Origin: a virus
Lineage: Duplodnaviria > Caudoviricetes
Virus record (IMG/VR): IMGVR_UViG_3300021478_000029
Span: 1-63,565 of that record
Strand: one strand, 5' to 3'
DNA length: 63,565 bases
The stretch's first letter is position 1; each line of letters begins with the position of its first letter. Below are positions 1 through 53,107 of the stretch, piece by piece. A program made the position numbers and the translations under genes. The notes below the pieces were generated by a model, which had not been told where the DNA came from, did not search any database, and saw nothing but the letters and a program-made list of their open reading frames with translations.

Positions 1-50
1 GCAAATGTATCGCGCTGACACAACTCAAGGACGGGAATCCTGCCGCGACG

Positions 51-290: not shown

Positions 291-458
291 ACCGCCTTGG
301 TCAAACGGACTCCCGGAAAGATTGGCGCTCCGCCGCCGGGAGCTCACCTTGCAGGACGGGCAAACGGAGCCGCGGTCACGCGTGGCGAACGGCCGTGTGC
401 ACAGTGAGCAAGTGCGCTTGGTCATTCCCGGCGGAGGTGTCCAGTCATCGCCTTCCAT
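246..458 (-). CDS. Small Zn-ribbon protein
   Basis: CSLC...CPSC in a 70-aa ORF from ATG 458; follows 463-1125 in the same operon. Confidence 0.5.
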   Translation of the reverse strand: MEGDDWTPPPGMTKRTCSLCTRPFATRDRGSVCPSCKVSSRRRSANLSGSPFDQGGSTGRRANGERGTRG

Positions 459-462
459 TGCG

Positions 463-1125
463 CTACGCTCCCGCTGATGCAGCGTGGTCAACCATCCCGC
501 CGACCACCGCCTCAATTTCCTCCGGGGAGTGTTCTTCCTCCCGCATCATGACCCGGTCATCAAACTCATGCCATGCGCCGTCCTCGCACAGTGGCGGCGC
601 GGCCAGGACGATGCCGGTCCGGTTGTCAAAGCGCACGAGTGCAGCGCACCGCCACCGCTCCGCCTGGCGCACGAGCCACGCGCGGAGCTCCGGGTCCCGG
701 TGCGCGTTCCGGTGCGCCGGGTCGCACCATATCTGGATCACGGGGACCTTGGCGGAGCTCCCGTCATCATTCTGCCGGACGATGAAATCCAAGGTCATGT
801 CGATCACGTAGTGGGAGCGGTCCGGGCGGCGGAGGCCCGCCGTTGTTTCGTCAATGAGCCACCGGCAGGCCCATGTGGCGCACGCGACGGGACGATCAGC
901 GTAGATCGAGCAACCCTTGCCGAAGCGGGCATACTGACACCGCTGGCCGGCGGCCTTGTTGAGCGGGACGGGGACGGGGACAAGCGTGCAACAGAGTGTG
1001 CACGTGCCGCACACTCGGCCGGAGGCCTCCCGGTTGAATGTGAGCTCCATGGAGCCGTCATCGTGCTCCACCATCTTCATGTGATCGCCGGCCAGTTCAT
1101 AATCCGGTGCTATGCGGGGCGGCAT
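463..1125 (-). CDS. CxxCxxCC (YkgJ-like) Zn/Fe-chelating protein
   Basis: CGTCTLCC...CQY...CSIYADRPVACATWACRW; true start may be ATG 1080. Confidence 0.7.
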   Translation of the reverse strand: MPPRIAPDYELAGDHMKMVEHDDGSMELTFNREASGRVCGTCTLCCTLVPVPVPLNKAAGQRCQYARFGKGCSIYADRPVACATWACRWLIDETTAGLRRPDRSHYVIDMTLDFIVRQNDDGSSAKVPVIQIWCDPAHRNAHRDPELRAWLVRQAERWRCAALVRFDNRTGIVLAAPPLCEDGAWHEFDDRVMMREEEHSPEEIEAVVGGMVDHAASAGA

Positions 1126-1298
1126 CAGGTGCGCCCTTCAATTTCCGCCAGGGTCCGCCGCGCCAGGTCACAGAGCGTTACCGTGGTCGCCTCCGTGGCG
1201 CCGGCCAGGGCCTCCCACGCGGCTCTATCCTCGGGGGACCATGGTCCGCCGCGGTGGAACAGTAAGACGGCCCGTGCAAGGCGCTCAGCCGGCGTCAT
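1125..1298 (-). CDS. Hypothetical protein (57 aa, below ORF-track cutoff)
   Basis: MTPAERLARAVLLFHRGGPW...; fills the gap between 1317-1583 and 463-1125; stop overlaps the next start. Confidence 0.55.
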   Translation of the reverse strand: MTPAERLARAVLLFHRGGPWSPEDRAAWEALAGATEATTVTLCDLARRTLAEIEGRT

Positions 1299-1316
1299 GG
1301 TCCGGGCCGGTGTCGC

Positions 1317-1583
1317 TCATGCCGGCGGCCTCCCCGTCCCGAACCCCTGATACTCCCAACCCTCTTTGCGGAGCCGGCGCAGCAAGTAGGGGAATTGCGC
1401 GAGCAGGTTCAGCAGTGCGGCGGCCTCCCCGGGGACCGTGGTCGCGCCTTGTGCCCAACGCTCAACGCGTCGGCGGATCGTAAGCGGCTCCGCGGTGTCC
1501 CCAAGGTGTCCGAGCAGGCGCGCCAATGCCCCTTGTGACAGTTGCAGCGCGTCCAAGGTGCTGCGGAATTCGTCCGTTGTCAT
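1317..1583 (-). CDS. Small XRE-type HTH regulator, candidate repressor of the left-end regulon
   Basis: MTTDEFRSTLDALQLSQGALARLL...RRVERWAQGATTVPGEAAALL matches the HTH-XRE pattern; preceded by a conserved hairpin and SD. Confidence 0.75.
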   Translation of the reverse strand: MTTDEFRSTLDALQLSQGALARLLGHLGDTAEPLTIRRRVERWAQGATTVPGEAAALLNLLAQFPYLLRRLRKEGWEYQGFGTGRPPA

Positions 1584-1599
1584 GGTTCTCTCCGGCGCT

Positions 1600-1622
1600 C
1601 CGCCGGCGCCAATCGCCGGCGG
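1600..1622 (-). promoter_or_regulatory. Conserved 5'-UTR hairpin, copy 1
   Basis: RNA CCGCCGGCG-AUUGG-CGCCGGCGG, 16 nt upstream of ATG 1583. Confidence 0.75.
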
Positions 1623-1635
1623 TTCCGCTTTCAGT

Positions 1636-1971
1636 CTAGTGCAGATATTCCGCTAGACCCATCCGGGTGACGGCCTCGATGATGGGCGTGGAGCACATGC
1701 CGTCTATACCAATGAAATAGCCGGCTTGCTTCTGCCACTCACAGGCCTCCCGGACCGCGGTCACGAATTCCGCCGCATCAGCGCACTCCGTCACCACGAC
1801 ATCGCCCTCAGCGTATGAGCAAAGCCGGAGGGTGAGGGGATTGATCCAGTTGCCGTAATACCAAGCGTCTTGCTTGGTATCGAGTTGAGCCCAGCCGTCC
1901 CTGAAATGGCACAGCTTGAAGTCATAGCGGTATCGGTCGCCCATAGGCTCAAAGGCGCGCGTGACCTTCAC
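1636..1971 (-). CDS. Hypothetical phage protein
   Basis: 111 aa, WAQLDTKQDAWYYGNWINP; GTGA overlap with the upstream gene. Confidence 0.75.
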   Translation of the reverse strand: MKVTRAFEPMGDRYRYDFKLCHFRDGWAQLDTKQDAWYYGNWINPLTLRLCSYAEGDVVVTECADAAEFVTAVREACEWQKQAGYFIGIDGMCSTPIIEAVTRMGLAEYLH

Positions 1972-2306
1972 CGGCCGGCCCTCCGGTCCTGGCGGCGCAT
2001 GGAGCGCAGCACGAGGCTCGCCGCGGTTTCCGGTGACAGGTTGAGGCGCTTCTCATTCAACCAATCCGCCACGGCCCGCATGGTTGACTCGTCACCGAAT
2101 GCAAACCGTTCCGGTAGAGGATAGTGGCCGGTCACGCCTTCAATAACTATGGACAGGATATAAGCGCCGCGATCCATAGTGGCCGTGAAGCAAAAGGGCA
2201 CACGTCCGCGGCCGTTCATTTCGAGGACCCGGTTTTCCAGGGCAGTGCAGAGCTCGTCGGCCGGGAGGGCGGCAGGCTCAGCGTTGACGGGCAATTTGTC
2301 AGACAT
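1968..2306 (-). CDS. Hypothetical protein
   Basis: Start re-called at ATG 2306 (MSDKLP) using GGAG SD, hairpin and promoter. Confidence 0.7.
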   Translation of the reverse strand: MSDKLPVNAEPAALPADELCTALENRVLEMNGRGRVPFCFTATMDRGAYILSIVIEGVTGHYPLPERFAFGDESTMRAVADWLNEKRLNLSPETAASLVLRSMRRQDRRAGR

Positions 2307-2323
2307 TGGAGGCTCCACAAGTT

Positions 2324-2346
2324 CCACCGGCGCCAATCGCCGGCGG
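2324..2346 (-). promoter_or_regulatory. Conserved 5'-UTR hairpin, copy 2
   Basis: CCGCCGGCG-AUUGG-CGCCGGUGG (one G-U pair), 17 nt upstream of ATG 2306. Confidence 0.75.
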
Positions 2347-2354
2347 CAGTGAGT

Positions 2355-2383
2355 ATAATACCAACATTTCATTGGTATGTCCA
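2355..2383 (-). promoter_or_regulatory. sigma70-like promoter with operator O1
   Basis: -35 TGGACA, 17 nt, -10 TATTAT; inverted repeat ATACCAAC-ATTTC-ATTGGTAT at 2358-2378. Confidence 0.8.
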
Positions 2384-2419
2384 GTGAACTTGCGGCGCGC
2401 ATCAAACGGAGCTCCGCTT

Positions 2420-2608
2420 ATGGACCTGTTGCTGATTATCGTCGTGTTGTTCCTGCTATTCGGCGGAGGCGGGGGACTATACCGTTACGGGTCACGCGCC
2501 AGTTGGGGACCGTCATACTACGCCGGCGGCGGCCTGGGGCTGATCCTGCTGATCGTGTTGGTTGTGTTGCTGCTCGGTGGCGGCGGCCTTCCGCACTGGC
2601 GCTACTGA
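2420..2608 (+). CDS. Small two-TM Gly-rich membrane protein (DUF3309-like)
   Basis: MDLLLIIVVLFLLFGGGGG...GGGLGLILLIVLVVLLLGG; GGAG SD. Confidence 0.7.
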   Translation: MDLLLIIVVLFLLFGGGGGLYRYGSRASWGPSYYAGGGLGLILLIVLVVLLLGGGGLPHWRY

Positions 2609-3231
2609 CGCGTCAGGACCTCAAGCGGCTCCACCTGCAAGCCCATTTCCTTCAACTCTTCCAGGAGCGCTTGAGCCGCGCGCTTCTCGGCGTCAGTGGC
2701 CAGGCGGGCCGGCAGAATGTTGATGATTTCACCCTCGACCCTCCCGCCGTGTATTGAGACTTTCCGGAGGCCGGTAGGCATGCCGCTGGCGCGCCGCTCA
2801 ATCTCCCGCATGTCCTGGATTGTCCGCCGCTCGCCAGTGGCGTTATCACGCCAAGTCAACATGCACCATATGACCTCTTTTCGATCTGACGCCTTGCTTG
2901 GCGGGAGCTCCGTGGCGCGCCGTTTATGATCCGCGTCAGTCTCGCCGGGCAGTTGCCCCACATCACGAATCCACGCCTCACCGATTGAGCACAGTGCGAC
3001 CGCATCATGGATGACGCAGAGCAACCGGAGCACACGATAGAAGTTTTGCTTGTCATGCAGCATCAGTGCCGGGATCACAAGCGGCCCCTCCGCCCGGTGC
3101 AGTATGAACATCGGGAGGACCTGGCCTTTATCGAGCAAGATTTGCCGGGCAAATGTCACGTCGAATTCGACCTGCTCTTGCCAGCGCTCGGGCACGTTGG
3201 CGCCTCCCGCGCTCCGTGGCCGGACGGTCAT
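2602..3231 (-). CDS. Hypothetical protein
   Basis: 209-aa ORF in the leftward operon; overlaps the upstream gene by 4 nt. Confidence 0.7.
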   Translation of the reverse strand: MTVRPRSAGGANVPERWQEQVEFDVTFARQILLDKGQVLPMFILHRAEGPLVIPALMLHDKQNFYRVLRLLCVIHDAVALCSIGEAWIRDVGQLPGETDADHKRRATELPPSKASDRKEVIWCMLTWRDNATGERRTIQDMREIERRASGMPTGLRKVSIHGGRVEGEIINILPARLATDAEKRAAQALLEELKEMGLQVEPLEVLTRQ

Positions 3232-3449
3232 AGCTCGTCCTCCGCGGCCGGTTCATACGCGTCATCGAATATCTCAACCGCCGGCATGCCCAACTCCGCA
3301 CGCTTCTCGTTGATCTTGTCCATGCAGGACCGGCACACCGGCTCCCGCGTCCCGGTGAACGCCGTCGTGCTCGGGACACGGACCGGATTGTAAGAAAACA
3401 CTTGATGGCACGTGATGCACGGACCCATGCAGAATACGAATCCCATCAC
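3228..3449 (-). CDS. Small Cys-rich protein
   Basis: CITC...CRSC; GGAGG SD. Confidence 0.7.
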   Translation of the reverse strand: MMGFVFCMGPCITCHQVFSYNPVRVPSTTAFTGTREPVCRSCMDKINEKRAELGMPAVEIFDDAYEPAAEDEL

Positions 3450-3469
3450 TAATCCTCCCGTTTGATGTT

Positions 3470-3706
3470 TCAGGGTAGCGCCTCCGCCTCCCGCCGGCGC
3501 CAGCTCGTGTAGTTTGCCACGTCAACCGCGAGTTGCCGGGCAAGCTGGTAAGGGCGGTAGAGCGCGTCCTGCTCTTCCCGCGGCTTGTCGAAGTCAACGC
3601 GTTGATCGTACTGCTTGAACAGGCGCCACGCGTCCTCAATACACTTGTCCGCGTGCCAGCCTGACCAGTTCTCCGGGTCCTTTGGAAGCCTGACCATAGC
3701 CGTCAC
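3470..3706 (-). CDS. Hypothetical protein
   Basis: 78 aa, 4-nt overlap with 3703-3924. Confidence 0.6.
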   Translation of the reverse strand: MTAMVRLPKDPENWSGWHADKCIEDAWRLFKQYDQRVDFDKPREEQDALYRPYQLARQLAVDVANYTSWRRREAEALP

Positions 3707-3924
3707 TCCGGCAGGCTGAGCGTGGCACTGTAGCGCCGCGCCAGGTCCTTCGCCGCCTTCACGGCCGCGGACTGCGATCGAAAAAACTGCTCGGACACCG
3801 TGCGGCCGAGTGCGTTGAAATCATCGTCCGGCAGGCCGAAACAACGGACCCGCCAGCCACGGCCGCTCCCGCGGTAGCCTCGCGGTTGCGTCCAATCAGT
3901 GACCGTCACTGTGTAGTGCATCAT
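3703..3924 (-). CDS. Hypothetical protein
   Basis: 73 aa in the tightly packed leftward operon. Confidence 0.6.
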   Translation of the reverse strand: MMHYTVTVTDWTQPRGYRGSGRGWRVRCFGLPDDDFNALGRTVSEQFFRSQSAAVKAAKDLARRYSATLSLPE

Positions 3925-4093
3925 GACACGGCTTCCATCAGTTTTAACTCAGCGGACAACAGAGCAATGTGCTCACGGCTCAACGGCTCAACCGGAGCCG
4001 GCTTCCACGGGCCGCGGGTCAGTGAAAGCAACGCGTCAATTTCCGCGTCCGTCAACGGGATTAGTTTTGTATCACGCATCATCTTGCCCTCCG

Positions 4094-4282
4094 TCAGCTA
4101 TCCGCTTGGGCGCGGTAGTAATCACGCATCAACCGCAAGGTTTCCAAGGCTTGCGTGATATTGCCGATCTCCACGTGTGCGACCAGCAGACCCAACGTTG
4201 TCGCTAGCATCATTTCGAGATGGCGGCGCGTGCGTTGTATTTCGACCAAAAGGCGGCCGATCTCTTCATTGAGTTCCATCAC
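4094..4282 (-). CDS. Hypothetical helical protein
   Basis: 62 aa, overlaps the stop of 4279-4620. Confidence 0.55.
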   Translation of the reverse strand: MMELNEEIGRLLVEIQRTRRHLEMMLATTLGLLVAHVEIGNITQALETLRLMRDYYRAQADS

Positions 4283-4620
4283 CGCTTCCCGCTCATGAGG
4301 TAGGTCATGCCATACGGGCCGCAGCCTGACAGTGGCTCAGCGTTGTGGAGGTTGCCGCGCGGATGGCGTGCCGGCGTCTTCCAACCGTCCGACTTCAGCA
4401 GGTTGCCGGTGGCGATCTCGATGAAGCCATAAGCGTATCGGCTTGATGGATTGTCCTCCACGACGATCCGGGAGTAGCGCGCGCCAGGCATTATCAGCAC
4501 GCGCGGAGGCGCGCCGACATTCCGGTTGGTAGTGTGATGCGCGGCCAGCATTGCCTCAAGGGCGGCGCGGAAGGCTTCGATTTCCGCCGCCGTCACTGGC
4601 GGGATAGAGCTCTGTGTCAT
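4279..4620 (-). CDS. Conserved phage protein (RYSRIV...GFI..ATGNLLKSDGWKTPARHPRGN family)
   Basis: Motif common in phage early genes; start re-called at ATG 4620 with GAGGA SD and hairpin. Confidence 0.75.
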   Translation of the reverse strand: MTQSSIPPVTAAEIEAFRAALEAMLAAHHTTNRNVGAPPRVLIMPGARYSRIVVEDNPSSRYAYGFIEIATGNLLKSDGWKTPARHPRGNLHNAEPLSGCGPYGMTYLMSGKR

Positions 4621-4637
4621 GGGGAAATCCTCAAATC

Positions 4638-4660
4638 CCGCCGGCGCCAATCGCCGGCGG
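4638..4660 (-). promoter_or_regulatory. Conserved 5'-UTR hairpin, copy 3 (intercistronic)
   Basis: CCGCCGGCG-AUUGG-CGCCGGCGG, 17 nt upstream of ATG 4620; no operator nearby. Confidence 0.75.
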
Positions 4661-4680
4661 CAGGCACGGCACGGCACGGG

Positions 4681-4893
4681 TCAGGTCAGGACCCGGACCA
4701 CCACGCAGCCGTTGAAACCCTTGGGCGCCATCTGCTTGATCGTCCGCCGCATCCAAGCCTTCGCAGCGCTATAGGTGCTTGAGGGAGCCCAAATCGGATC
4801 AGAGCCATCAAAGGAGAAGGCCCAACCGCCATAACCGCGAGGCTCGCGGCTGTGGGTCCAAACGTAGGTGACTGTGTCAAATTCAAAGGTCAT
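4681..4893 (-). CDS. Hypothetical protein
   Basis: 70 aa (HSREPRGYGGWAF); GAGGA SD, hairpin and promoter upstream. Confidence 0.75.
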   Translation of the reverse strand: MTFEFDTVTYVWTHSREPRGYGGWAFSFDGSDPIWAPSSTYSAAKAWMRRTIKQMAPKGFNGCVVVRVLT

Positions 4894-4913
4894 GGGGAAG
4901 GGTCCTCAATGCC

Positions 4914-4933
4914 ACCGGCGCCTATTCGCCGGC
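4914..4933 (-). promoter_or_regulatory. Conserved 5'-UTR hairpin, copy 4 (loop variant)
   Basis: GCCGGCG-AAUAGG-CGCCGGU, 20 nt upstream of ATG 4893. Confidence 0.7.
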
Positions 4934-4942
4934 AACAATTGG

Positions 4943-4971
4943 AATATACCAACATAACGTTGGTATGTCCA
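4943..4971 (-). promoter_or_regulatory. sigma70-like promoter with operator O2
   Basis: -35 TGGACA, 17 nt, -10 TATATT; perfect inverted repeat ATACCAAC-ATAAC-GTTGGTAT at 4946-4966. Confidence 0.8.
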
Positions 4972-4991
4972 GCGCAATCATCCAGCCTCTC

Positions 4992-5351
4992 TCAAATCAT
5001 GCCGAAAATCAGCAGCCAGGACGGAGCTCCGTCCGGACCCGTGCCGTCCGGTTCGACACGGTCGCCGGTGGGAGTTTCACAGACGCCGTCACTGACCCAT
5101 TCTTCCAGGCACGCCATGGAAGGAAGGCACTTCACGTCGCGGCGCCACGCCGGCAGTGATTCAACAAACGCAACTTTGCGCGCGCGCCACTCCGCCAACG
5201 TAAGCTCAGCCTTCTTGTGGCCAAACAGTTTCCAGGTCCGGTCATAGACGGACTTGCAAAGCACAACGCCGTCCTCGCGCGCGCTCAGCAAACGGCCGCC
5301 CTTGCCGATGTAACGGGCAAACTCGGGACCGTGGGCAGATAGTTTGGCCAT
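4992..5351 (-). CDS. Hypothetical phage protein
   Basis: Start re-called at ATG 5351 (MAKLSAHG); C-terminal EWVSDGVCETPTGDRVEPDG motif. Confidence 0.75.
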   Translation of the reverse strand: MAKLSAHGPEFARYIGKGGRLLSAREDGVVLCKSVYDRTWKLFGHKKAELTLAEWRARKVAFVESLPAWRRDVKCLPSMACLEEWVSDGVCETPTGDRVEPDGTGPDGAPSWLLIFGMI

Positions 5352-5369
5352 GGAAGGCACTCCCTCAAG

Positions 5370-5392
5370 CCACCGGCGCCAATCGCCGGCGG
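5370..5392 (-). promoter_or_regulatory. Conserved 5'-UTR hairpin, copy 5
   Basis: Identical to copy 2; 18 nt upstream of ATG 5351. Confidence 0.75.
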
Positions 5393-5400
5393 ACAAATGA

Positions 5401-5429
5401 AACATACCAACATTCCATTGGTATTGCCA
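5401..5429 (-). promoter_or_regulatory. sigma70-like promoter with operator O3
   Basis: -35 TGGCAA, 17 nt, -10 TATGTT; ATACCAAC-ATTCC-ATTGGTAT at 5404-5424. Confidence 0.75.
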
Positions 5430-5477
5430 GTTTAATCGCTATGCATCGGCGGAGTGTCCAGCGTGCGCTGATAACGC

Positions 5478-5506
5478 ATGACATACCAACTGAATGTTGG
5501 TATAGT
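5478..5506 (+). promoter_or_regulatory. sigma70-like promoter with operator O4, driving the 5533-9479 operon
   Basis: -35 ATGACA, 17 nt, -10 TATAGT; perfect inverted repeat ATACCAAC-TGAAT-GTTGGTAT at 5483-5503; AAGGAG SD downstream. Confidence 0.8.
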
Positions 5507-5532
5507 GTTTCCTGTAAGAAGGAGACACGCAC

Positions 5533-5745
5533 ATGACCACCGAAACCAAGTTGACCTGGCGCCGCGCATCAAAAAACAACGGCTTCTATGCCAAGGGTCC
5601 CGACGGTGAGTTCCACGTCTATCGCGCCGAGAAGGGGCGCCGCGCACATGAGGCCACGTTGAATGGTGAGGTCATCGGCAAGTGGAACGACGCCGCTGAC
5701 GCCATGGCGGACATTGAGCGCAGCCTCCGCGTGGAGGCCGAGTAA
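5533..5745 (+). CDS. Hypothetical protein
   Basis: 70 aa, strong AAGGAG SD. Confidence 0.75.
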   Translation: MTTETKLTWRRASKNNGFYAKGPDGEFHVYRAEKGRRAHEATLNGEVIGKWNDAADAMADIERSLRVEAE

Positions 5746-6134
5746 TGGCCTCCCGCCGCACCTGGATTGACGTTTGCGCGCACTGCGGCCGGACCGCTGA
5801 TACCAACGTCCCGCCGATCCCTCCGGAAACCGCCTGGGGCGGCGTCTGCATGGCGTGCAACGCCAAGCACGGATTGAGCGAGGCCTATACCGCCTGGCGC
5901 ACCGCGTGGATCGCCACCGCAAAGGCGGAGTCCCGGGCCAAGGGTGAGGCCGTTTGGCAGGCCAAGGGGATCAAGGTCGGGGAGCGCGTGCGCGTGTGGG
6001 GCCGGTCATTGCTCGGCGCGTTCCCGATCACCGGCATTGCCCGCGTCGGCGCCTCCGGCGCCTATGTCCAAGCGAAAGGGTATGGCCGCCTTGACCCGCG
6101 CGGCGCTCAGCGCGTGGAGGACCCGCAAGCGTGA
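5745..6134 (+). CDS. Zn-finger-containing hypothetical protein
   Basis: CAHC...CMAC; TAATG coupling to the upstream gene. Confidence 0.7.
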   Translation: MASRRTWIDVCAHCGRTADTNVPPIPPETAWGGVCMACNAKHGLSEAYTAWRTAWIATAKAESRAKGEAVWQAKGIKVGERVRVWGRSLLGAFPITGIARVGASGAYVQAKGYGRLDPRGAQRVEDPQA

Positions 6135-6844
6135 ATGATGCGATAGTCGAAATTCAAAACCCGCCCGTCGCCGCGGCGCTCGTGGCCAGCGGCTTTGATG
6201 GCATCGCACCACGCTATGACAGCGTGTTTCATTCGCGTCGTTGCTGCGCCGAGGACCGGCTCTTGGCCGCCAGGCTCCGCCCGTTCCTTCGCGGCTCCAT
6301 GGGCCAGCTCTTGGATGTCGGTTGCGGCACTGGCGCACTATTGCGCCTGGTCACGTGGCCGGTGTGGCGATACTCCGGCATTGACGTGTCAGCCGGCATG
6401 CTGGCGGAGGCCTCGCGACAGTATCCGGGCGCCGAGTTCTTTCGGGCCTCCGTGGAGGCCATGCCGTTCGGTGATGAACAGTTTGAGCGAGTAATCTCGA
6501 TCTTCTCCGCGCTCTCCTACGTCTCCGGACCTGCAAGGGCAGTCCGCGAGATTTATCGTGTTCTGCGGCCTGGCGGCCGGTGCCTCGTGATGGTTTATGC
6601 GCCGCGGTGGTATCGCCGCAACGCAGACTGTGCCGGTGACCTGCATGTGCACCTGGCGCCGGCCGCGTGGAGCGCATGGCAAGCCATCACGAGGTTCCGT
6701 GTGGCCGGCTTTGATCCGGGCTCCATCCGCCTGTCAGCGTTCTCGATCCTGCCGACGCCTCTGCTGTGCTTTGACGGCTTGCTAGCGCGACGGTTCCCGG
6801 AGGCCGGTCGCTATCTCATCATTGAGGCCGCGCGTCCGGCATGA
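6131..6844 (+). CDS. Class I SAM-dependent methyltransferase (small-molecule/UbiE-like fold)
   Basis: LLDVGCGTG, GIDVSAGML, MPFGDEQF, IYRVLRPGG. Confidence 0.9.
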   Translation: MNDAIVEIQNPPVAAALVASGFDGIAPRYDSVFHSRRCCAEDRLLAARLRPFLRGSMGQLLDVGCGTGALLRLVTWPVWRYSGIDVSAGMLAEASRQYPGAEFFRASVEAMPFGDEQFERVISIFSALSYVSGPARAVREIYRVLRPGGRCLVMVYAPRWYRRNADCAGDLHVHLAPAAWSAWQAITRFRVAGFDPGSIRLSAFSILPTPLLCFDGLLARRFPEAGRYLIIEAARPA

Positions 6845-8004
6845 CTAAGTCGCGGTCACGGACCGGGCTTGATGTGTTTGAGCAAGCCTTGCAGCGGCTC
6901 CATGAGCTCTACGCTGGCGGGCACACCGTGGTCGTGGCGTTCTCCGCCGGCAAGGACTCCGGAGTGTGCCTTGAGCTCGCCATCATGGCGGCCAGGATGA
7001 CCAATCGGCTCCCGGTGCACGTCTCGATGCGTGATGAAGAGGTCATGCTCCCGGGGACGTTTGAATATGCGGAGCGGGTCGCCGCGCGGCCCGAGGTTGA
7101 TTTCCGGTGGTGCGTGGCCAACCAACCGATTGTCAACGTATTCAACCGGCGCGCGCCGTATTGGTGGGTGTTTGACCCGGAGCTCCGCCCGGACCAATGG
7201 GTGCGTCAACCGCCGGAGTGTGCGACCCGGATTGACGCTCTCGACATCACGCGGATTATCACGCGGCAGACGTATCCTACGGCGCCAGGTAAAGACATTT
7301 ACGCGGTCATTGGTATCCGCGCGAGTGAAAGTCAAAACCGGCGCTACAGCGTGTTCGCCGCCGGCGGGCACCTGACCAAGCCGAACGCCATGGGGACCCG
7401 GAATTGCCGGCCGATCTATGACTGGCAGGACGCGGACGTGTGGCGCGCGGTCCGTGACAACAAGTGGGATTTTAATCAGGCCTACAATACCATGATCCGG
7501 TTCAACATCCCTCTGTCGAAAATGCGGATCGCACCGCCCACGCTCAACTCCGCTTCCGTGTATCTGTTGGAGATGGCGCGGAAGGCCTGGCCGCGATGGT
7601 TTGATAAGGTGGAGGACCGGCTCCCCGGCGTCAAAACCATATCGCAGTTCGGCGCGCGCGCCGTCATGCCGCACCGGCGCATTGATGAAACCTGGCATGA
7701 CACCTTCATGCGGGAGTGCATCACGGAGGCGCCGGCGCCGTGGATCGCGGAGCGCTCAACGAACGTCATGCGCGCGCTGCTATCACTCCACGGCCAACAC
7801 TCGACGGCACCGTTCCCGGACGTGAAGCCTTGCTATATGTGCGTCGGCAACATGGGCGCCTGGCGCTCGCTGGCGATGGCGCTTTACAACGGGGACCCGT
7901 TCGCACTGAAGACGCAAGGGATCGGCGGCAACCGCGCGATGGAACCGGAGTTCTTCCGCCACGGCGCGGGCAGTTGGGGCGGTCACTCACCGACCTGGTC
8001 ATGA
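6841..8004 (+). CDS. PAPS reductase-like / IbrA-YbdN-type PP-loop protein
   Basis: VAFSAGKDS PP-loop, GIRASESQNR, PIYDWQDADVW. Confidence 0.85.
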   Translation: MTKSRSRTGLDVFEQALQRLHELYAGGHTVVVAFSAGKDSGVCLELAIMAARMTNRLPVHVSMRDEEVMLPGTFEYAERVAARPEVDFRWCVANQPIVNVFNRRAPYWWVFDPELRPDQWVRQPPECATRIDALDITRIITRQTYPTAPGKDIYAVIGIRASESQNRRYSVFAAGGHLTKPNAMGTRNCRPIYDWQDADVWRAVRDNKWDFNQAYNTMIRFNIPLSKMRIAPPTLNSASVYLLEMARKAWPRWFDKVEDRLPGVKTISQFGARAVMPHRRIDETWHDTFMRECITEAPAPWIAERSTNVMRALLSLHGQHSTAPFPDVKPCYMCVGNMGAWRSLAMALYNGDPFALKTQGIGGNRAMEPEFFRHGAGSWGGHSPTWS

Positions 8005-8672
8005 ATTGGCATTACGCCTCCACCGGAGGCCTCAACTATCCGGTTCAACCTGGCGAAGTGTGGCGTGCTGATCACCACGTGATCGCATGCGGGGATTTGG
8101 AGGCCGGGGATGGGCTCCGGCTCATTGACCGGTTCGGAGCTCCGGACCTGGTCTATTCCGACCCGCCATGGAATGACGGCAACGCCGGCGCGTTCCGATC
8201 GAAAGCCGGGATACCGCGTAAGGTGAACTTCACCGAATTCCTGGATCAGTTGCTCACCGTGGTTCGGATGGCGCGCCGTGACGTGTTCCTGGAAATGGGG
8301 ATCGCCAACACGCCGCATCTGATGGACCTGGCGGAGCTCCACGGCGGGGAGGTCGTCCGGCGCTGGCCGATCACCTATTACCGGCGGCATCCCTGCATGC
8401 TTCTGCATCTGCGCTGGCAGGGTCCGGCCGCAGACGTGGACGGGCTCGCCGGGATGGATGACGAGGATACGCCAGGGGCAGCGCTCAAGGCCTGCATGCG
8501 GCCCGGCGACGTCGTAATGGACCCTTGCACCGGCCGTGGCCTGACCGCCTTCACGGTGGCTACGGCGGGCCGCACGTTCCATGGGCTTGAGCTCTCGCCG
8601 TGGCGCATGTCGTGCACGCTGACGCGCCTGGCGGCGGCAGGTTGCACCATCGAGCGTGAAGGACCCTTGTAG
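8001..8672 (+). CDS. Amino (N6A/N4C) DNA methyltransferase-like protein, beta-type motif order
   Basis: Start ATG 8001 (ATGA overlap); catalytic DPPW before SAM-binding DPCTGRG and GLELS. Confidence 0.8.
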   Translation: MNWHYASTGGLNYPVQPGEVWRADHHVIACGDLEAGDGLRLIDRFGAPDLVYSDPPWNDGNAGAFRSKAGIPRKVNFTEFLDQLLTVVRMARRDVFLEMGIANTPHLMDLAELHGGEVVRRWPITYYRRHPCMLLHLRWQGPAADVDGLAGMDDEDTPGAALKACMRPGDVVMDPCTGRGLTAFTVATAGRTFHGLELSPWRMSCTLTRLAAAGCTIEREGPL

Positions 8673-9479
8673 ATGGCGAAACGCGCCGGAAAGAAAACTC
8701 CGCCGATCAAAACCAACGTGGCACTGGAAACGCTGGTCATCGAGTATGTGCCAATCGAGTCAGTGAAGCCGAACGAATACAATCCCAACCGGATGTCAGA
8801 GAAGGACTTTGAGCTTCTGCTGCGCTCCATGCGGGAGGACGGTTTCACGCAACCCGTCATCGTGCAACGCGAGACGCGGGTCATTGTTGACGGGGAGCAC
8901 CGCTGGCGCGCCGCGGCGCATCTCGGCATGACGACGCTCCCGGTCGTGCTGGTGAGCATGTCCCCGGAGCAAGCGCGGATCGCCACGCTCCGTCACAATC
9001 GAGCTCGTGGCGCCGAGGACCTGCAACTCTCCGCGGAGGTCCTCCGGGACCTGGAAAAGCTCGGCGCGCTTGAGTGGGCCGCGGACAGTCTGATGCTCAG
9101 TGACGCGGAGATTGAAAAGCTACTCGCAGACGTGCCGGCTCCGGACGCGCTGGCCGGCGCTGAATACTCAACGGCATGGGCGCCCGGGGAACGGCCAGAG
9201 GACGCGGAAATCACGGACCGCGCCACCGACACGAACGGCTCCGGGATTGTCCAGACATCCGCCGCGTCAGTGAATGCGCTTGAGGTGCAGCGGCGCCAGG
9301 AAGCGGCAATGGCGACGGCACGCACGGAGGAAGAGCGGGAGCTCGCCCGGAAGGATGGCACGTTCTACCGCATCAACCTGATGTTCGCAGATGATGAGGC
9401 GAAGGTTATCAAAACGGTGCTCGGGGACCGGCCCGCGGAGCGCCTGTTGCAAATCTGCCGGGATCTCGTGCCGGCTTAG
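8673..9479 (+). CDS. ParB/Srx-like N-terminal domain protein (IbrB/YbdM-like)
   Basis: KPNEYNPNRM, GFTQPVIV, IVDGEHRWRA, TLRHNRARG. Confidence 0.88.
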   Translation: MAKRAGKKTPPIKTNVALETLVIEYVPIESVKPNEYNPNRMSEKDFELLLRSMREDGFTQPVIVQRETRVIVDGEHRWRAAAHLGMTTLPVVLVSMSPEQARIATLRHNRARGAEDLQLSAEVLRDLEKLGALEWAADSLMLSDAEIEKLLADVPAPDALAGAEYSTAWAPGERPEDAEITDRATDTNGSGIVQTSAASVNALEVQRRQEAAMATARTEEERELARKDGTFYRINLMFADDEAKVIKTVLGDRPAERLLQICRDLVPA

Positions 9480-9643
9480 TGCAACATGGTGCGTTCACTA
9501 TTTTCTCACGACAACCGCCTTATGGTAGGCGGAACTTGGTTTGGGATGGCCATAATGCACACGCTTGAAGGCCGCTTTCTCTATGGCGCCATTACCTTTG
9601 GGGTGGCCATGGTGATTCTGCCTTACGCGCCGACCAATCGCAC

Positions 9644-10012
9644 CTAGGCCGCAGCGTCGCCGCCCTCGGGCTTTGCGAAGTCCTCCGGCTTTACCGGGAT
9701 GTCCCGGTTGATGATTTTGCTGATCGCGAGATTGGTCGTCATGGCCCAATACTTGAAGCCGTCGCCGAGCTCCAAATACTTGTTCTTCCGGCCGCGAAAG
9801 GTGCCGGTGTAGCCGTGCTGATGGATGGCATGGAACAGGCGGACATAGACCGCCTCAATCTCCGGGCTCCGCATGATATACCAATGGGGAACCTCCGGCA
9901 TGGTCTTAGCGAATCGGAACGGGAGGCCTTTGACGGCCTCCCGCAGCTCAACGATTTCCGGTAGCTCTGCTATTTCCAAGGCGGCGCCTCCAATCCGGTT
10001 GTGGTCACGCAA
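9644..10012 (-). CDS. Conserved hypothetical protein (FAKTMP..PHWY family)
   Basis: FRFAKTMPEVPHWYIMR...YLELGDGFKYWAM. Confidence 0.7.
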   Translation of the reverse strand: MRDHNRIGGAALEIAELPEIVELREAVKGLPFRFAKTMPEVPHWYIMRSPEIEAVYVRLFHAIHQHGYTGTFRGRKNKYLELGDGFKYWAMTTNLAISKIINRDIPVKPEDFAKPEGGDAAA

Positions 10013-10833
10013 ACCTCACCGTTCGCGCTGTTACCGCGGAGTTCTATCATACCGCGGCGGCGGAGTGCACCGGTCAAACCGGGCAACTGACCTTTGGCCA
10101 GGTTGTGCGGCGTGTTGCTATCGTGGATGGCCTTGTATTTGACCCAAACGCCGGCCCGCTCTTTGAGCGGCTTGTCCGTCAGTGCCTTGCAGTCAATCAG
10201 CGCCATCAACAGGCGATCTTGCTCGGGCGTGAGGCCTTGAGCGGCGCCAGCTAATGACACGGGCTTTGACGCCGGAGCCGGCGTGGCGGGCGCCTCACTC
10301 GGGCGCTTTAGGCCAACGATGCCAAGAAAAGGACCGGTTGAGTTCGCCGGAGCGGGAGCGGCCAGGTGGCCGAGGCGGGTCCGGGCACGCTTGGCAACCT
10401 TGGCCGCCTCGCGCTCTAGCCGGGCCTGGCGGAGCTCCTTCACCGAGTCCTTGGCAATCTTGGCCGCGGCCTTTTCCGGATCACCCTCAACGGTCCGGAT
10501 CGGACCATGCAGTGACCGGAGCTCCACGATGTTCCCGCTCACCGCGTCAATGGCCGTGGGGACAAACGCCGCGGCGCGGACTTCTACGACTGCGCCATGG
10601 CGCTCAACGCCATCCGCTACCGCCTTCTTGAGCGCCGCCAGCGGTACATTCACCGGGACCGCGAGGCCTGCTCGCGCCATGGCAACCGGCGCCGTGACGT
10701 TCATGCGGTCAAGCTCCGCAATAGTCAGCGCCAGGGCGCGCGCATGGGATTCAAACTTGCGGACCGGCTTCTCGCGGTCCGTCACCGCGTTGAACACTTT
10801 GACCAGTTGCGCGGCAGAGAGTTTGTCAAGCAT
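9970..10833 (-). CDS. Hypothetical protein, possible C-terminal winged helix
   Basis: Start re-called at ATG 10833 (AGGAG SD, hairpin, promoter); C-terminal GALRRRGMIEL...VTTTG resembles wHTH. Confidence 0.7.
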   Translation of the reverse strand: MLDKLSAAQLVKVFNAVTDREKPVRKFESHARALALTIAELDRMNVTAPVAMARAGLAVPVNVPLAALKKAVADGVERHGAVVEVRAAAFVPTAIDAVSGNIVELRSLHGPIRTVEGDPEKAAAKIAKDSVKELRQARLEREAAKVAKRARTRLGHLAAPAPANSTGPFLGIVGLKRPSEAPATPAPASKPVSLAGAAQGLTPEQDRLLMALIDCKALTDKPLKERAGVWVKYKAIHDSNTPHNLAKGQLPGLTGALRRRGMIELRGNSANGEVCVTTTGLEAPPWK

Positions 10834-10854
10834 CGGATAGCTCCTAAACGCGTC

Positions 10855-10873
10855 ATCGGCGCCAATCGCCGGC
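10855..10873 (-). promoter_or_regulatory. Conserved 5'-UTR hairpin, copy 6
   Basis: GCCGGCG-AUUGG-CGCCGAU, 21 nt upstream of ATG 10833. Confidence 0.7.
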
Positions 10874-10881
10874 AACACCCC

Positions 10882-10910
10882 CTTATACCAACGTTCCGTT
10901 GGTATTCATA
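10882..10910 (-). promoter_or_regulatory. Promoter with operator O5
   Basis: -10 TATAAG, weak -35; perfect inverted repeat ATACCAAC-GTTCC-GTTGGTAT at 10885-10905. Confidence 0.75.
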
Positions 10911-11003
10911 CATCAATCGTTAATCATGCCATGCGACTGACGCTTTTATGTGCGGCACTCACTGCATGGCACCGATCCACGCGGCAATGAAGCGGTGCAA
11001 CAA

Positions 11004-11600
11004 ATGAAGGCAGGACGGAAACCAACACCGGCGGCCCTACTCAAATTGAAGGGCACAGAGAACGTCACTAGGGCGCGTGAGCGCGGCCCGGAGCCGGAGG
11101 CGCCGGGGGACTTGCTGGCAGAGCCGCCCGACTGGCTCTCAGACGGCCAGGCGGCTTCCTGGCGCTATGCCGTTGAGCATGCGCCGCGAAGCATCCTCCG
11201 CTTGATCGACCGCGGCTTGCTCACCGTCTGGTGCGAGGCGGAGGACCGCCACCGGCGGGCCACGGAAGCACAAGCGATGCTCGACAAGCGCTCCCCGCGT
11301 CTACCGTTCATGATGTTACGGCGCAAAGCGCCTCCCAAGGCCAAGAAGGGGGACGATGACGCCAAGAAGGACGGTGAGGCCGCGCCGGCGCCGGCGGCAG
11401 AAATGCCGGAGCTATCGGTGAGCCCATATCTCTCGATCATCAACCAAGCGGCGCAAGTCATGATCCGCGCCGCGTCGGAAATGGGCTTCGCGCCGGCGGC
11501 ACGGCCGCGCCTGGCGGAGACGAATCCCGGGGCGGCCGTGCCGAACGACTCCCCGTGGCACAAGCTCCGGGTCCTGCAAGGCGGCCGTGAGAGCGCTTAG
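11004..11600 (+). CDS. terS: Terminase small subunit (P27 family)
   Basis: GRKPTPAALLKLKG, PPDWL, EMGFAPAARPRL; directly upstream of terL; start re-called at ATG 11004. Confidence 0.9.
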   Translation: MKAGRKPTPAALLKLKGTENVTRARERGPEPEAPGDLLAEPPDWLSDGQAASWRYAVEHAPRSILRLIDRGLLTVWCEAEDRHRRATEAQAMLDKRSPRLPFMMLRRKAPPKAKKGDDDAKKDGEAAPAPAAEMPELSVSPYLSIINQAAQVMIRAASEMGFAPAARPRLAETNPGAAVPNDSPWHKLRVLQGGRESA

Positions 11601-11605
11601 CGGTC

Positions 11606-53006: not shown

Positions 53007-53107
53007 GGCCGCAATGTATGGAACAGCCGGTAGCAATCCTGCAAGGGAGGCCGACTCGAAATCGTCCCTCTTGCATTGGCACGGTGAGTTTCAATACGAT
53101 GGGCTCC

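What the first reader, a model, noticed from the sequence alone, without database searches (positions are those of the whole stretch)
1317..10910. Left-end regulon: five operator-containing promoters, six conserved RNA hairpins and one small HTH gene (Aca2-like dual DNA/RNA control?)
Seen: the 21-bp inverted repeat ATACCAAC-N5-(G/A)TTGGTAT occurs at 2358, 4946, 5404, 5483 and 10885, each time filling the 17-nt spacer of a sigma70-like promoter. A separate hairpin CCGGCG-AUUGG-CGCCGG lies 16-21 nt upstream of six start codons. One of these genes (1317-1583) encodes an 88-aa XRE-HTH protein downstream of the O1 promoter, so autoregulation is possible. Established: anti-CRISPR operons use strong promoters repressed by Aca HTH proteins at inverted repeats, and Aca2 also binds a 5'-UTR RNA stem-loop to repress translation. 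Inference: this is a multi-promoter immediate-early regulon, possibly controlled by one HTH at both DNA and RNA level, whose ~15 small unknown genes are candidate anti-defence or host-takeover factors.
Basis: partly seen in the sequence, partly recalled or inferred. Interest (0 to 1): 0.88.

Follow-up and report, generated by a model that had tools for sequence, protein, structure and literature searches.

The report
Repressor-controlled phage promoter set with RNA hairpins
An uncultivated temperate phage drives about 23 accessory genes from five near-identical promoters that each carry the same palindromic operator, most followed by a conserved RNA hairpin, probably under a small self-regulating helix-turn-helix protein, a layout recently described for anti-CRISPR regulators.

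Summary
The 21-bp palindrome ATACCAAC-N5-RTTGGTAT occurs exactly five times in the 63.5-kb record (0 expected). Each copy spans a 17-nt promoter spacer. Six GC-stem hairpins lie about 20 nt before start codons. I found a sixth, wider operator-like palindrome at 1858-1880. The whole module recurs in three other IMG/VR contigs, giving 19 promoters and 23 hairpins. G.U wobble pairs show the hairpin acts in the sense RNA. It starts 9-11 nt after the -10, so at the predicted 5' end of the mRNA. The 88-aa protein hits no Pfam, PHROG or NCBIfam model. It is nonetheless an XRE-type HTH: HigA2 profile E 2e-5, and VIA-align Z about 8 to MqsA, HigA2 and Aca2. It models as a dimer. No result here ties this protein to either motif beyond co-occurrence and operon position. 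A 2026 paper (PMC13551039) already describes this architecture for Aca1 and Aca2, including multi-operon regulons and hairpins between genes. I read it as a new member of a known kind. Binding of both DNA and RNA by the one HTH stays unproven, and a 5'-terminal mRNA stabiliser is a strong rival for the hairpin. The same stretch was also noted in this scan as e1-6291321.

The parts
2358..2378 (-). Operator O1 inside a leftward promoter (-35 TGGACA 2383-2378, -10 TATTAT 2360-2355, TG before the -10)
4946..4966 (-). Operator O2 inside a leftward promoter (-35 TGGACA 4971-4966, -10 TATATT 4948-4943)
5404..5424 (-). Operator O3 inside a leftward promoter (-35 TGGCAA 5429-5424, -10 TATGTT 5406-5401). 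The hexamers are weaker and the generic scan does not list it.
5483..5503 (+). Operator O4 inside the rightward promoter (-35 ATGACA 5478-5483, -10 TATAGT 5501-5506). No hairpin follows. Centre-to-centre distance to O3 is 79 bp, and 79-80 bp in two relatives.
10885..10905 (-). Operator O5 inside a leftward promoter (poor -35 TATGAA 10910-10905, -10 TATAAG 10887-10882, TGG before the -10)
1858..1880 (.). Sixth operator-like site: the perfect palindrome ATACCAAGC-N5-GCTTGGTAT. Its outer 7 bp match the operators but the site is 2 bp wider. It lies inside gene 1636-1971, about 280 nt upstream of the HTH start, and is identical in relative L076.
   Evidence: also seen
2327..2343 (-). RNA hairpin (core CCGGCG-AUUGG-CGCCGG; extended 9-bp stem, -17.6 kcal/mol). 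It starts 11 nt after the O1 -10 and ends 20 nt before the ATG at 2306.
4915..4932 (-). RNA hairpin with loop AAUAGG. It starts 10 nt after the O2 -10 and ends 21 nt before the ATG at 4893.
5373..5389 (-). RNA hairpin. It starts 11 nt after the O3 -10 and ends 21 nt before the ATG at 5351.
10856..10872 (-). RNA hairpin with one mismatch at the stem base. It starts 9 nt after the O5 -10 and ends 22 nt before the ATG at 10833.
4641..4657 (-). Hairpin between two genes of the O2 operon, 20 nt before the ATG at 4620 (DUF7717 gene)
1603..1619 (-). Hairpin between genes, in front of the HTH gene, 19 nt before the ATG at 1583. It overlaps a weaker alternative hairpin at 1592-1606 (-9.4 against -19.5 kcal/mol).
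1317..1583 (-). 88-aa XRE-type HTH protein, third gene of the O1 operon and the candidate repressor
463..2306 (-). O1 operon: ORFs 2306-1968, 1971-1636, 1583-1317 (HTH), 1298-1125 and 1125-463
2602..4893 (-). O2 operon: eight small ORFs (70, 113 [DUF7717], 62, 53, 73, 78, 73 and 209 aa)
4992..5351 (-). O3 gene, 119 aa, no family hit
5533..9647 (+). O4 operon: two small ORFs, a SAM methyltransferase, a PAPS-reductase-like protein (weak BrxP/DndC hits), a DNA methylase, a ParB_N protein and a 53-aa hydrophobic ORF
9644..10833 (-). O5 operon: a 287-aa and a 122-aa ORF, with no family hit, conserved in all three relatives
1703..1720 (-). Operator half-site plus TATAGA inside the 3' end of gene 1636-1971. 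In relative L047/L090 the same half-operator and -10 lie directly in front of the HTH gene. It may be a weak promoter of the HTH gene itself.

Best explanation
This is a negative-feedback regulon of an uncultivated temperate phage, which also carries a CI/Cro-like gene pair.

Promoters and operator (shown from sequence). Five sigma70-type promoters of the extended -10 kind (TGn before the -10) each hold the same 21-bp perfect palindrome across the spacer. A protein bound there would exclude RNA polymerase.

Repressor (inferred). The most likely binder is a dimer of the 88-aa XRE-type HTH protein (1317-1583). It is itself transcribed from promoter O1. On entry all five promoters would fire, the HTH would accumulate, and it would then shut down about 23 accessory genes together with its own gene. 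This is the logic of Aca regulators and of restriction-modification controller proteins. The cargo includes a DNA-modification operon (two methyltransferases, a PAPS-reductase-like protein and a ParB_N protein).

Hairpin position and strand (shown from sequence and covariation). The four leftward promoters are followed, 9-11 nt after the -10, by a conserved and very stable hairpin. It therefore forms the predicted 5' end of the mRNA and ends about 20 nt before the start codon. Two more copies lie between cistrons. The hairpin works in the sense RNA.

Hairpin function (inferred). It is a post-transcriptional element. It either protects the mRNA 5' end or marks a processed 5' end, or it is a protein-binding site next to the ribosome-binding site. 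I put the HTH as its ligand at about 1 in 4.
For: Operator:
- 5 sites against 0 expected, and none elsewhere in the record.
- In 19 aligned promoters from 4 genomes, the TACCAA and TTGG+TAT cores are invariant. The base flanking the central N5 is C in 16 of 19 on the left and G in 18 of 19 on the right. The -35 and the rest of the -10 vary. So selection acts on the palindrome itself.
- All 19 have TGG before the -10.
- A sixth, wider palindrome lies just upstream of the HTH gene.

HTH:
- The profile of 9 homologues matches the HigA-2 HTH at E 2e-5.
- The AF2 model has pLDDT 89.1 and five helices.
- VIA-align gives MqsA C-domain Z 8.2, HigA2 Z 8.1, Aca2 Z 7.9, Aca10 Z 7.0 and Aca1 Z 6.7.
- The homodimer model scores 0.64 against a best control of 0.01. 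Runs agree in at least 97% of contacts and the partner pLDDT is at least 78. This mark was reached by 20 of 30 proteins solved as pairs of one chain and 1 of 23 solved as single chains. Related XRE dimers are solved, so this pass may be recall from likeness.
- The gene is present with the operator in all 3 genomes where the region is available: the window, L047/L090 and L076/L089.
- In L047 the gene has its own degenerate half-operator promoter.

Other candidates:
- The CI/Cro intergenic region has an unrelated inverted repeat and no operator.
- The ParB_N protein matches ParB and Noc only in the N-terminal domain.

Hairpin:
- 23 copies in 5 contigs.
- The inner 4 pairs are invariant. The outer pairs are kept through G.U wobble, with 11 GU against 10 GC at one pair.
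- Overall 89.6% of cells are paired, against 30-71% when the partners are slid. The covariation score is 0.213 against 0.145 in shuffles, reached by 0 of 500.
- The distance from the -10 to the stem is 9-11 nt in 16 of 16. The distance from the stem to the start has a median of 20 nt.
- The hairpin alone folds at -17.6 to -19.5 kcal/mol.

Precedent: PMC13551039 describes the same layout for Aca1 and Aca2. That covers an inverted repeat in the promoter, an RNA motif directly after the TSS ending about 20 nt before the start, motifs between genes, several operons, and DNA-modification enzymes among the cargo (Results parts 1-2 and Discussion read).
Against: - No experiment or covariation links this HTH to the operator.
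- The third relative (L010, a 14.3-kb fragment) has 4 operators but no HTH gene in the DNA available.
- The HTH is the third gene of its operon, not adjacent to O1.
- No TSS is mapped, and no sequencing run could be listed.
- The host is unknown.
- L088 keeps the identical hairpin. Its HTH recognition helix differs and no canonical operator is present in 20.2 kb.
- In L047 the hairpin in front of the HTH gene has a different loop, CCCC.
- O4 has no hairpin.
- Stem and operator share no sequence. Only the loop AUUGG resembles the half-site core ATTGG, and that likeness was noticed after the fact.
- No cargo gene matches a known anti-defence family.
Confidence: 0.55

Rival explanations
1. The same HTH binds both the DNA palindrome and the RNA hairpin. 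It represses transcription at five promoters and translation at six ribosome-binding sites, as Aca2 does.
For: - The architecture equals that published for Aca1 and Aca2.
- The HTH fold is as close to Aca2 as to its other best neighbours.
- The hairpin ends 6-9 nt before the Shine-Dalgarno sequence, by my count from the flanks, so a bound dimer could block the 30S subunit.
- The loop keeps A at its 5' end and GG at its 3' end in 22 of 23 copies, which suggests sequence-specific reading.
- The commonest loop, AUUGG, equals the ATTGG of the half-site variant at O1 and O3.
- Copies between genes fit the RNA motifs 'between adjacent genes' of PMC13551039.
Against: - L088 has the same hairpin but a changed recognition helix and no canonical operator.
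- The hairpin of the HTH leader in L047 has loop CCCC.
- O4 lacks a hairpin.
- For Aca10 and Aca12, predicted RNA motifs of this kind were not bound in EMSA. For Aca1, no translational silencing was seen.
- Aca2 binds two hairpins, and here there is one.
Confidence: 0.25
2. The hairpin needs no protein. It is a 5'-terminal stem-loop that shields the transcripts from decay that depends on the 5' end. Between genes it would mark or protect processed ends. The operator and its repressor act on DNA only.
For: - The stem begins at the predicted +1: the core is 9-11 nt after the -10 in 16 of 16, and the extended stem starts 3-4 nt earlier.
- It is very stable.
- It persists in L088 without the canonical operator.
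- It is absent from O4, so the two motifs can be separated.
- mRNA stabilisation by 5'-terminal stem-loops is established. I saw Emory, Bouvet and Belasco 1992 and Bouvet and Belasco 1992 only as entries in the reference list of PMC3997798, and I recall their content.
Against: - A pure stabiliser needs neither a conserved loop (A...GG in 22 of 23) nor a fixed distance to the start codon (median 20 nt).
- Copies inside operons are not at a primary 5' end.
Confidence: 0.4
3. The palindrome is read by a different regulator: a host protein, the phage CI-like repressor, or the ParB_N protein acting like KorB. The 88-aa HTH would then be an unrelated antitoxin-like or local regulator.
For: - There is no direct link between the HTH and the operator.
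- The nearest sequence relative of the HTH is an antitoxin, HigA-2.
- The ParB_N protein is conserved in all four genomes.
- L010 shows operators without an HTH gene in the fragment available.
Against: - The operator is absent from the CI/Cro switch.
- The ParB_N protein lacks a detectable ParB-type HTH domain.
- No toxin-like partner lies next to the HTH, and L047 lacks the upstream neighbour altogether.
- The module scan of 185,579 species genomes gave only 3 hits, which look like chance matches.
- A full-text search for the two half-site words plus 'operator' found 3 papers, none about a regulator.
Confidence: 0.2
4. The conserved block is a recognition site for a dedicated sigma factor or activator, so control is positive. 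Alternatively, the hairpins are RNA decoys that mimic CRISPR repeats.
For: - The -35 hexamers are weak at O3 and O5.
- Solitary repeat-like hairpins in phages have been reported as RNA anti-CRISPRs. This is recalled and was not checked here.
Against: - The spacer is 17 nt, with a TGn extended -10 and near-consensus hexamers at 3 of 5 promoters. No activator is needed.
- Perfect two-fold symmetry points to a dimeric binder in the spacer.
- The hairpins sit at a fixed distance from start codons and have no repeat-like flanks.
- No Rfam family matches.
Confidence: 0.05

Closest known systems
Aca1/Aca2-type anti-CRISPR-associated regulators with promoter inverted repeat plus 5'-UTR RNA motif (PMC13551039, 2026; Results parts 1-2 and Discussion read)
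   Same: - A small HTH encoded in an operon that it would repress.
- An inverted repeat overlapping the promoter.
- An RNA hairpin directly after the predicted TSS that ends about 20 nt before the start codon.
- Further hairpins between genes.
- Several neighbouring operons with the same DNA motif.
- DNA-modification enzymes among the cargo.
   Different: - No known acr gene is present.
- The HTH belongs to no described Aca family or Pfam family.
- There are five or six DNA sites and six RNA sites, against 'up to three' motif pairs in the paper.
- There is a single continuous 9-10-bp GC stem. Aca2 has two hairpins and Aca1 a bipartite stem.
- The paper's supplements were closed. I could not check whether this HTH cluster appears in its candidate lists.
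HigA2 (Vibrio cholerae) and MqsA C-terminal XRE HTH domains
   Same: - Best sequence match (profile E 2e-5) and best fold matches (Z 8.1-8.2).
- Dimeric HTH that autoregulates through a palindromic operator in its own promoter. The biology is recalled.
   Different: - No toxin partner gene.
- No N-terminal toxin-neutralising segment (HigA2) and no zinc domain (MqsA).
- The operator is repeated at five promoters over 10 kb.
Restriction-modification controller (C) proteins
   Same: - A small XRE HTH dimer binding a palindrome inside a promoter to time the expression of DNA-modification genes.
- Structural matches at Z 4.9-5.5.
   Different: - No restriction endonuclease gene was recognised.
- The operator is unrelated to C-boxes (recalled).
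- The regulon is much larger.
5'-terminal stabiliser stem-loops (ompA, papA type)
   Same: A stable stem-loop at the very 5' end of the transcript. The position here is a prediction.
   Different: - The loop is conserved.
- The distance to the start codon is fixed.
- Copies lie inside operons.

Membership tests
XRE-family HTH (HigA2/MqsA-C/Aca2-like subgroup) | Sequence similarity to family members | tested here: met
   phmmer against PDB finds HigA-2 at E 0.0026. The profile of 9 homologues finds it at E 2e-5. Pfam HTH models give no hit at E up to 10.
XRE-family HTH (HigA2/MqsA-C/Aca2-like subgroup) | Five-helix HTH fold | tested here: met
   AF2 pLDDT 89.1 with five helices. VIA-align Z 8.2, rmsd 1.7 A over 62 residues to MqsA-C. 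Z 8.1, rmsd 2.2 A over 64 residues to HigA2. Foldseek E-values are weak, at 0.05 or more.
XRE-family HTH (HigA2/MqsA-C/Aca2-like subgroup) | Homodimer that fits a two-fold symmetric site | tested here: met
   Model score 0.64 against a best control of 0.01. Contacts agree in at least 97% and the partner pLDDT is at least 78. The mark was reached by 20 of 30 proteins solved as pairs of one chain and 1 of 23 solved as single chains. This is a model only and may reflect likeness to solved XRE dimers.
Aca2 family | Sequence membership | tested here: not met
   No Pfam family at E up to 10. Neither phmmer nor the profile search of PDB sequences retrieves any Aca2 chain at E up to 10.
Aca2 family | N-terminal HTH plus C-terminal dimerisation domain (chains of 115-124 residues) | tested here: not met
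   The protein has 88 aa. The alignment covers only Aca2 residues 1-57 (7ezy_A, Z 7.9, rmsd 1.4 A over 56 residues).
Aca2 family | [quoted passage not shown] | tested here: not met
   There is one hairpin per leader. The two-hairpin description is from PMC13551039.
Aca regulators in general | Encoded in an operon with a validated acr or anti-defence gene | tested here: inconclusive
   The unknown cargo ORFs have no Acr or anti-defence family hit in Pfam, PHROGs or NCBIfam. Dedicated anti-defence libraries such as dbAPIS were not available.
Aca regulators in general | Inverted repeat overlapping the promoter of its own operon | tested here: met
   O1 at 2358-2378 spans the spacer of the promoter that heads the operon containing the HTH gene.
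Aca regulators in general | The protein binds that repeat and represses | not testable with these tools
   This needs EMSA and reporter assays.
HigBA2-type toxin-antitoxin module | Adjacent RelE/HigB-like toxin gene | tested here: not met
   The neighbours 1636-1971 and 1125-1298 have no toxin family hit. For 1636-1971, the PDB sequence search gives only calpain chains at E 0.1 or more. L047 lacks the upstream neighbour.
5'-terminal mRNA stabiliser hairpin | Stem within a few nt of the transcript's 5' end | tested here: inconclusive
   The core stem lies 9-11 nt after the -10 in 16 of 16, so it is predicted to be at +1. No TSS data exist.
Rfam RNA families | Match to a curated covariance model | tested here: not met
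   cmscan of 1-12000 at E up to 1 gives only a chance mir-354 hit, away from the hairpins.

The most novel reading that the evidence does not exclude
One 88-aa HTH of a previously undescribed family reads a DNA palindrome at six sites. With the same surface it also reads the AUUGG-loop hairpin at six mRNA sites, where the loop mimics the operator half-site core. That would be the largest dual DNA/RNA regulon of the Aca type, covering about 23 genes in five operons. It would also flag about 20 unknown small proteins, and a methyltransferase/PAPS-reductase/ParB_N operon, as co-regulated early counter-defence genes.
Probability: 0.2. Interest if true: 0.7.

Novelty: new member of a known kind. 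Interest (0 to 1): 0.5.

Why it matters
If the HTH is the repressor, this is a compact and clean example of Aca-style control. It has identical operators and a single hairpin type, is conserved in four genomes, and extends to five operons. It would come from a new HTH family in a GC-rich phage probably of Alphaproteobacteria. This guess rests on the best terL hit, Brucella phage BiPBO1 at 43.5%, and on one family member from an Acetobacteraceae MAG. The operator would serve as a marker for a set of about 20 unknown co-regulated early genes worth screening for counter-defence activity. The system also offers a simple way to separate two roles of post-TSS hairpins, protein binding and 5'-end protection. 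PMC13551039 left that question open for Aca1.

Tried and rejected
Searches for relatives and context:
- Close phage isolates. megablast of 1-12000 against the phage collection gave no match. tblastn of the HTH against the same collection gave no match at E up to 1e-3.
- Prophage or host context. The module pattern in genome contigs gave 3 stretches, all with no homologue and no hairpin, which I judge to be chance. The HTH profile found 0 of 401 sampled genomes of one class, so it was not found in those searched.
- More diverged relatives for covariation between protein and operator. HTH searches of viral contigs and metagenome contigs gave only L088 and the 1.2-kb L091 beyond the three close relatives. 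The PAPS-reductase query returned the same three contigs. I aligned those proteins (94% mean identity) but did not spend another scan on them.
The 58-71-kb contigs that carry the homologues P0006-P0008 and P0014 could therefore not be read.
- Of the 71 stretches, I examined only the 4 that come from the three multi-site contigs. The other 67 single-site stretches were not examined.

Expression: no RNA holder was listed, and no run at all was listed.

Annotation and literature:
- Rfam gave no family for the hairpin.
- The protein Atlas gave no usable lead for 1968-2306 (best score 0.78) or for the O5 protein.
- PADLOC gave no hit for 9 left-arm proteins. The PAPS-reductase-like protein gave weak BrxP and DndC hits.
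- The Aca2 Nature paper, looked up by a DOI recalled from memory, is not held. What I say about Aca2 comes from PMC13551039.
- The supplements of PMC13551039 were not opened because supplements are closed. They may list this HTH cluster.

Rejected readings:
- CI as the operator binder. The switch region has a different inverted repeat.
- The hairpin as an intrinsic terminator. No U-tract follows it.
- A switch between hairpins 1603-1619 and 1592-1606. The first is 10 kcal/mol more stable.

Full report
WHAT THE WINDOW IS. The window is one complete IMG/VR virus record of 63,565 bp, classed linear, with a CheckV completeness estimate of 100. GC content is about 63% and there is no tRNA gene. No close isolate exists. 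megablast of the first 12 kb against 50,697 phage records found nothing. The large terminase is at best 43.5% identical, to Brucella phage BiPBO1. A CI-like gene (52338-53036, HTH_31/HTH_3) and a Cro-like gene (HTH_3) face each other near 53 kb, so the phage looks temperate.

ATACCAAC-N5-RTTGGTAT occurs at 2358, 4946, 5404, 5483 and 10885 and nowhere else. This holds even with two mismatches allowed, and 100 shuffles gave none. In each case the palindrome covers the last base of a -35 hexamer, a 17-nt spacer and the first three bases of a -10 hexamer. Four promoters fire leftward and the one at 5483 fires rightward. A generic consensus scan ranks the promoters at 5483, 4946 and 2358 as the three best sigma70-like sites in the first 11.7 kb, each 10 of 12 with TG before the -10. 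It does not list those at 5404 and 10885, whose hexamers are weaker.

The hairpin 17-mer is exact on the minus strand at 1603, 2327, 4641 and 5373, with one mismatch at 10856. A variant with a 6-nt loop lies at 4915-4932.

It is the perfect palindrome ATACCAAGC-N5-GCTTGGTAT at 1858-1880, with the same outer seven bases but two bp wider. It lies inside the gene just upstream of the HTH gene and is identical in one relative.

GENE MAP.
- O3 drives one gene (5351-4992).
- O2 drives eight small genes (4893-2602).
- O1 drives five (2306-463), of which the HTH gene is the third.
- O5 drives two (10833-9644).
- O4 drives seven rightward genes (5533-9647). These include a SAM methyltransferase, a PAPS-reductase-like protein, a DNA methylase and a ParB_N protein.

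That makes about 23 ORFs. Apart from DUF7717 (4279-4620) and two PHROGs of unknown function, the small proteins match nothing in Pfam, PHROGs, NCBIfam or PADLOC.

CONSERVATION. A scan of 2.9 million IMG/VR contigs for the operator gave 71 stretches. Only three contigs carry several sites: L010 (4), L008+L047 (1+5) and L076 (4 exact plus one with a mismatch). I did not examine the 67 single-site stretches. The three contigs are syntenic relatives. Their terminase is 83-97% identical and their PAPS-reductase-like protein 86-97%.

Aligning all 19 promoters shows that the TACCAA and TTGG+TAT cores are invariant. The base flanking the central N5 is C in 16 of 19 on the left and G in 18 of 19 on the right. 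The -35 and the last three bases of the -10 vary. The palindrome itself is therefore under selection, beyond what a promoter needs. That is the signature of an operator for a dimeric protein. The TGG before every -10 also makes these extended -10 promoters, which explains why poor -35 hexamers are tolerated.

THE HAIRPIN. I collected 23 copies in five contigs, each followed by a Shine-Dalgarno sequence and an ORF of at least 62 codons.
- The inner four pairs never vary.
- The three outer pairs are kept largely through G.U wobble, with 11 G.U against 10 G-C at one pair.
- 89.6% of cells pair, against 30-71% when the 3' partners are slid.
- The covariation score exceeds all 500 shuffles.

Wobble pairs exist only in RNA and only on the sense strand. 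So the element works in the mRNA, not as a DNA palindrome. The caveat is that the sequences are related and the inner stem is uninformative.

The core stem begins 9-11 nt after the -10 in 16 of 16 promoter-linked copies. With its outer pairs, the stem therefore starts at the predicted +1. It ends a median of 20 nt before the start codon, with a range of 16-25. For the 5373 copy the script took an earlier GTG, and I use the ATG at 21. Alone it folds at -17.6 to -19.5 kcal/mol.

Two window copies (1603, 4641) lie between cistrons. No Rfam family matches. A 59%-identical HTH homologue on L091 is preceded by a hairpin with a different, compensated stem sequence.

THE 88-AA PROTEIN. It has no hit in Pfam even at E up to 10, and none in PHROGs, NCBIfam or PADLOC.
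- phmmer finds the HigA-2 antitoxin HTH at E 0.0026.
- A profile of nine homologues improves this to 2e-5.
- The AF2 model is confident, at pLDDT 89.1 with five helices.
- Foldseek E-values are weak, at 0.05 or more.
- VIA-align gives Z 8.2 to the MqsA C-domain, 8.1 to HigA2, 7.9 to Aca2 (rmsd 1.4 A over 56 residues), 7.0 to Aca10 and 6.7 to Aca1.
- A homodimer model passes its controls, at 0.64 against 0.01. This may reflect likeness to solved XRE dimers.

The family is tiny. Only 18 proteins were found among 5.8 billion, none with a Pfam domain on record, and one from an Acetobacteraceae MAG.

LINK BETWEEN HTH AND OPERATOR. This step is inferred.

Points in favour:
- The gene lies in the O1 operon.
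- It co-occurs with the operator in all three genomes where that region is available.
- In L047 a degenerate half-operator with a -10 sits directly in front of the gene. In the window the same half-site lies about 120 nt upstream of the gene.
- The extra palindrome at 1858-1880 lies next to it.
- The recognition helix is invariant among the nine closest homologues.

Other candidates look worse:
- The CI/Cro switch has a different inverted repeat and no operator.
- The ParB_N protein matches ParB and Noc only in the N-terminal domain.
- No host regulator with this site turned up in a full-text search.
- The module is absent from 185,579 species genomes apart from three chance matches.

Points against: there is no covariation test, and the fragment L010 has operators but no HTH gene in its 14.3 kb.

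WHAT THE HAIRPIN DOES. This is open. The published precedent is close. PMC13551039 (abstract, Results parts 1-2 and Discussion read) reports the following:
- Aca2 and Aca1 bind an inverted repeat in their promoter.
- They also bind an RNA motif that starts directly after the TSS and ends about 20 nt before the start codon.
- Such motifs also occur between genes.
- One Aca can serve up to three neighbouring operons.
- DNA-modification enzymes are among the cargo.

The same paper also reports that the predicted motifs of Aca10 and Aca12 were not bound. For Aca1 it saw no translational silencing, and it discusses titration or mRNA stability instead.

Here the conserved loop (A...GG in 22 of 23 copies), the fixed distance to the start codon, and the likeness of AUUGG to the half-site core all favour a protein ligand. 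Three facts favour a protein-independent 5'-terminal stabiliser, or at least a ligand other than the HTH recognition helix:
- The position is exactly at +1.
- O4 has no hairpin.
- L088 keeps the identical hairpin with a changed recognition helix (R38T, Q45S) and no canonical operator in 20.2 kb.

Stabilisation by 5'-terminal stem-loops is established knowledge. I saw the primary papers only as entries in the reference list of PMC3997798.

COMPARISON AND VERDICT. The system works like an Aca or C-protein feedback circuit. It is not a member of the Aca2 family: there is no sequence match, no C-terminal domain, and one hairpin instead of two. No acr gene is recognisable, so 'Aca' is an analogy and not a classification. 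It is not a HigBA-type toxin-antitoxin pair either, because it has no toxin partner.

I rate it a new member of a known kind. The mechanism is plausible for the DNA level (about 0.55-0.6) and uncertain for the RNA level (about 0.25 for HTH binding). The concept has been in print since September 2026. Interest is 0.5. The system is clean, has more sites than the published examples, and marks about 20 unknown co-regulated genes. Set against this, the host is unknown and nothing here is categorically new.

Noticed in passing
window 1858-1880: Perfect 9+9 palindrome ATACCAAGC-N5-GCTTGGTAT. It is operator-like but 2 bp wider and lies inside gene 1636-1971, upstream of the HTH gene. It is identical at L076 13037-13059. 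It may be an auxiliary or roadblock site.
   Followed up: partly
window 1703-1720; L090 about 9930-9950: An operator half-site fused to TATAGA lies inside the 3' end of gene 1636-1971. In L047/L090 the same element lies directly in front of the HTH gene. It may be a weak promoter of the regulator's own gene.
   Followed up: partly
window 2420-2608 (+): A 62-aa glycine-rich, hydrophobic ORF (DUF3309, E 1.3e-6) on the opposite strand, between O1 and the end of the O2 operon. It is conserved in L076. Its promoter is unclear and may overlap O1.
   Followed up: no
window 5425-5482 and the equivalent stretches in L047 and L076: The spacing between the divergent O3 and O4 operators is 79-80 bp in three genomes. 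A conserved block between them contains the small palindrome CAGCG-N2-CGCTG. A 'CGATTG'-like block lies 3 nt upstream of the -35 in about 11 of 19 promoters, by my count.
   Followed up: no
window 1592-1606 (-): A second hairpin, CCGGCG-GAG-CGCCGG, overlaps the 3' arm of the HTH leader hairpin and abuts the Shine-Dalgarno sequence. It is conserved in L076 and L047 but is 10 kcal/mol weaker than the main hairpin.
   Followed up: partly
window 52338-53371: A CI-like and a Cro-like HTH pair. The intergenic region (about 53009-53108) carries an inverted repeat (TGCAAGGGA...TCCCTCTTGCA) unrelated to the left-end operator.
   Followed up: partly
window 6841-8004 (+): The PAPS-reductase-like protein gives weak hits to the PADLOC models BrxP (E 7.9e-9) and DndC (E 1e-4). 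It lies between two methyltransferases and a ParB_N protein, which suggests a DNA-modification operon under O4.
   Followed up: no
leaders after the hairpins, e.g. window 4894-4914 and 5352-5372: Most leaders share GAGGACC(C/T)TCCC just before the ATG. This is a Shine-Dalgarno sequence followed by a pyrimidine run that can pair back onto it (small second stem).
   Followed up: no
L088 about 6029-6045: The more distant relative has the palindrome CACCAA-N5-TTGGTG in its divergent promoter region. It has the same CCAA/TTGG core at a shorter spacing and could be the diverged operator of its diverged HTH.
   Followed up: no
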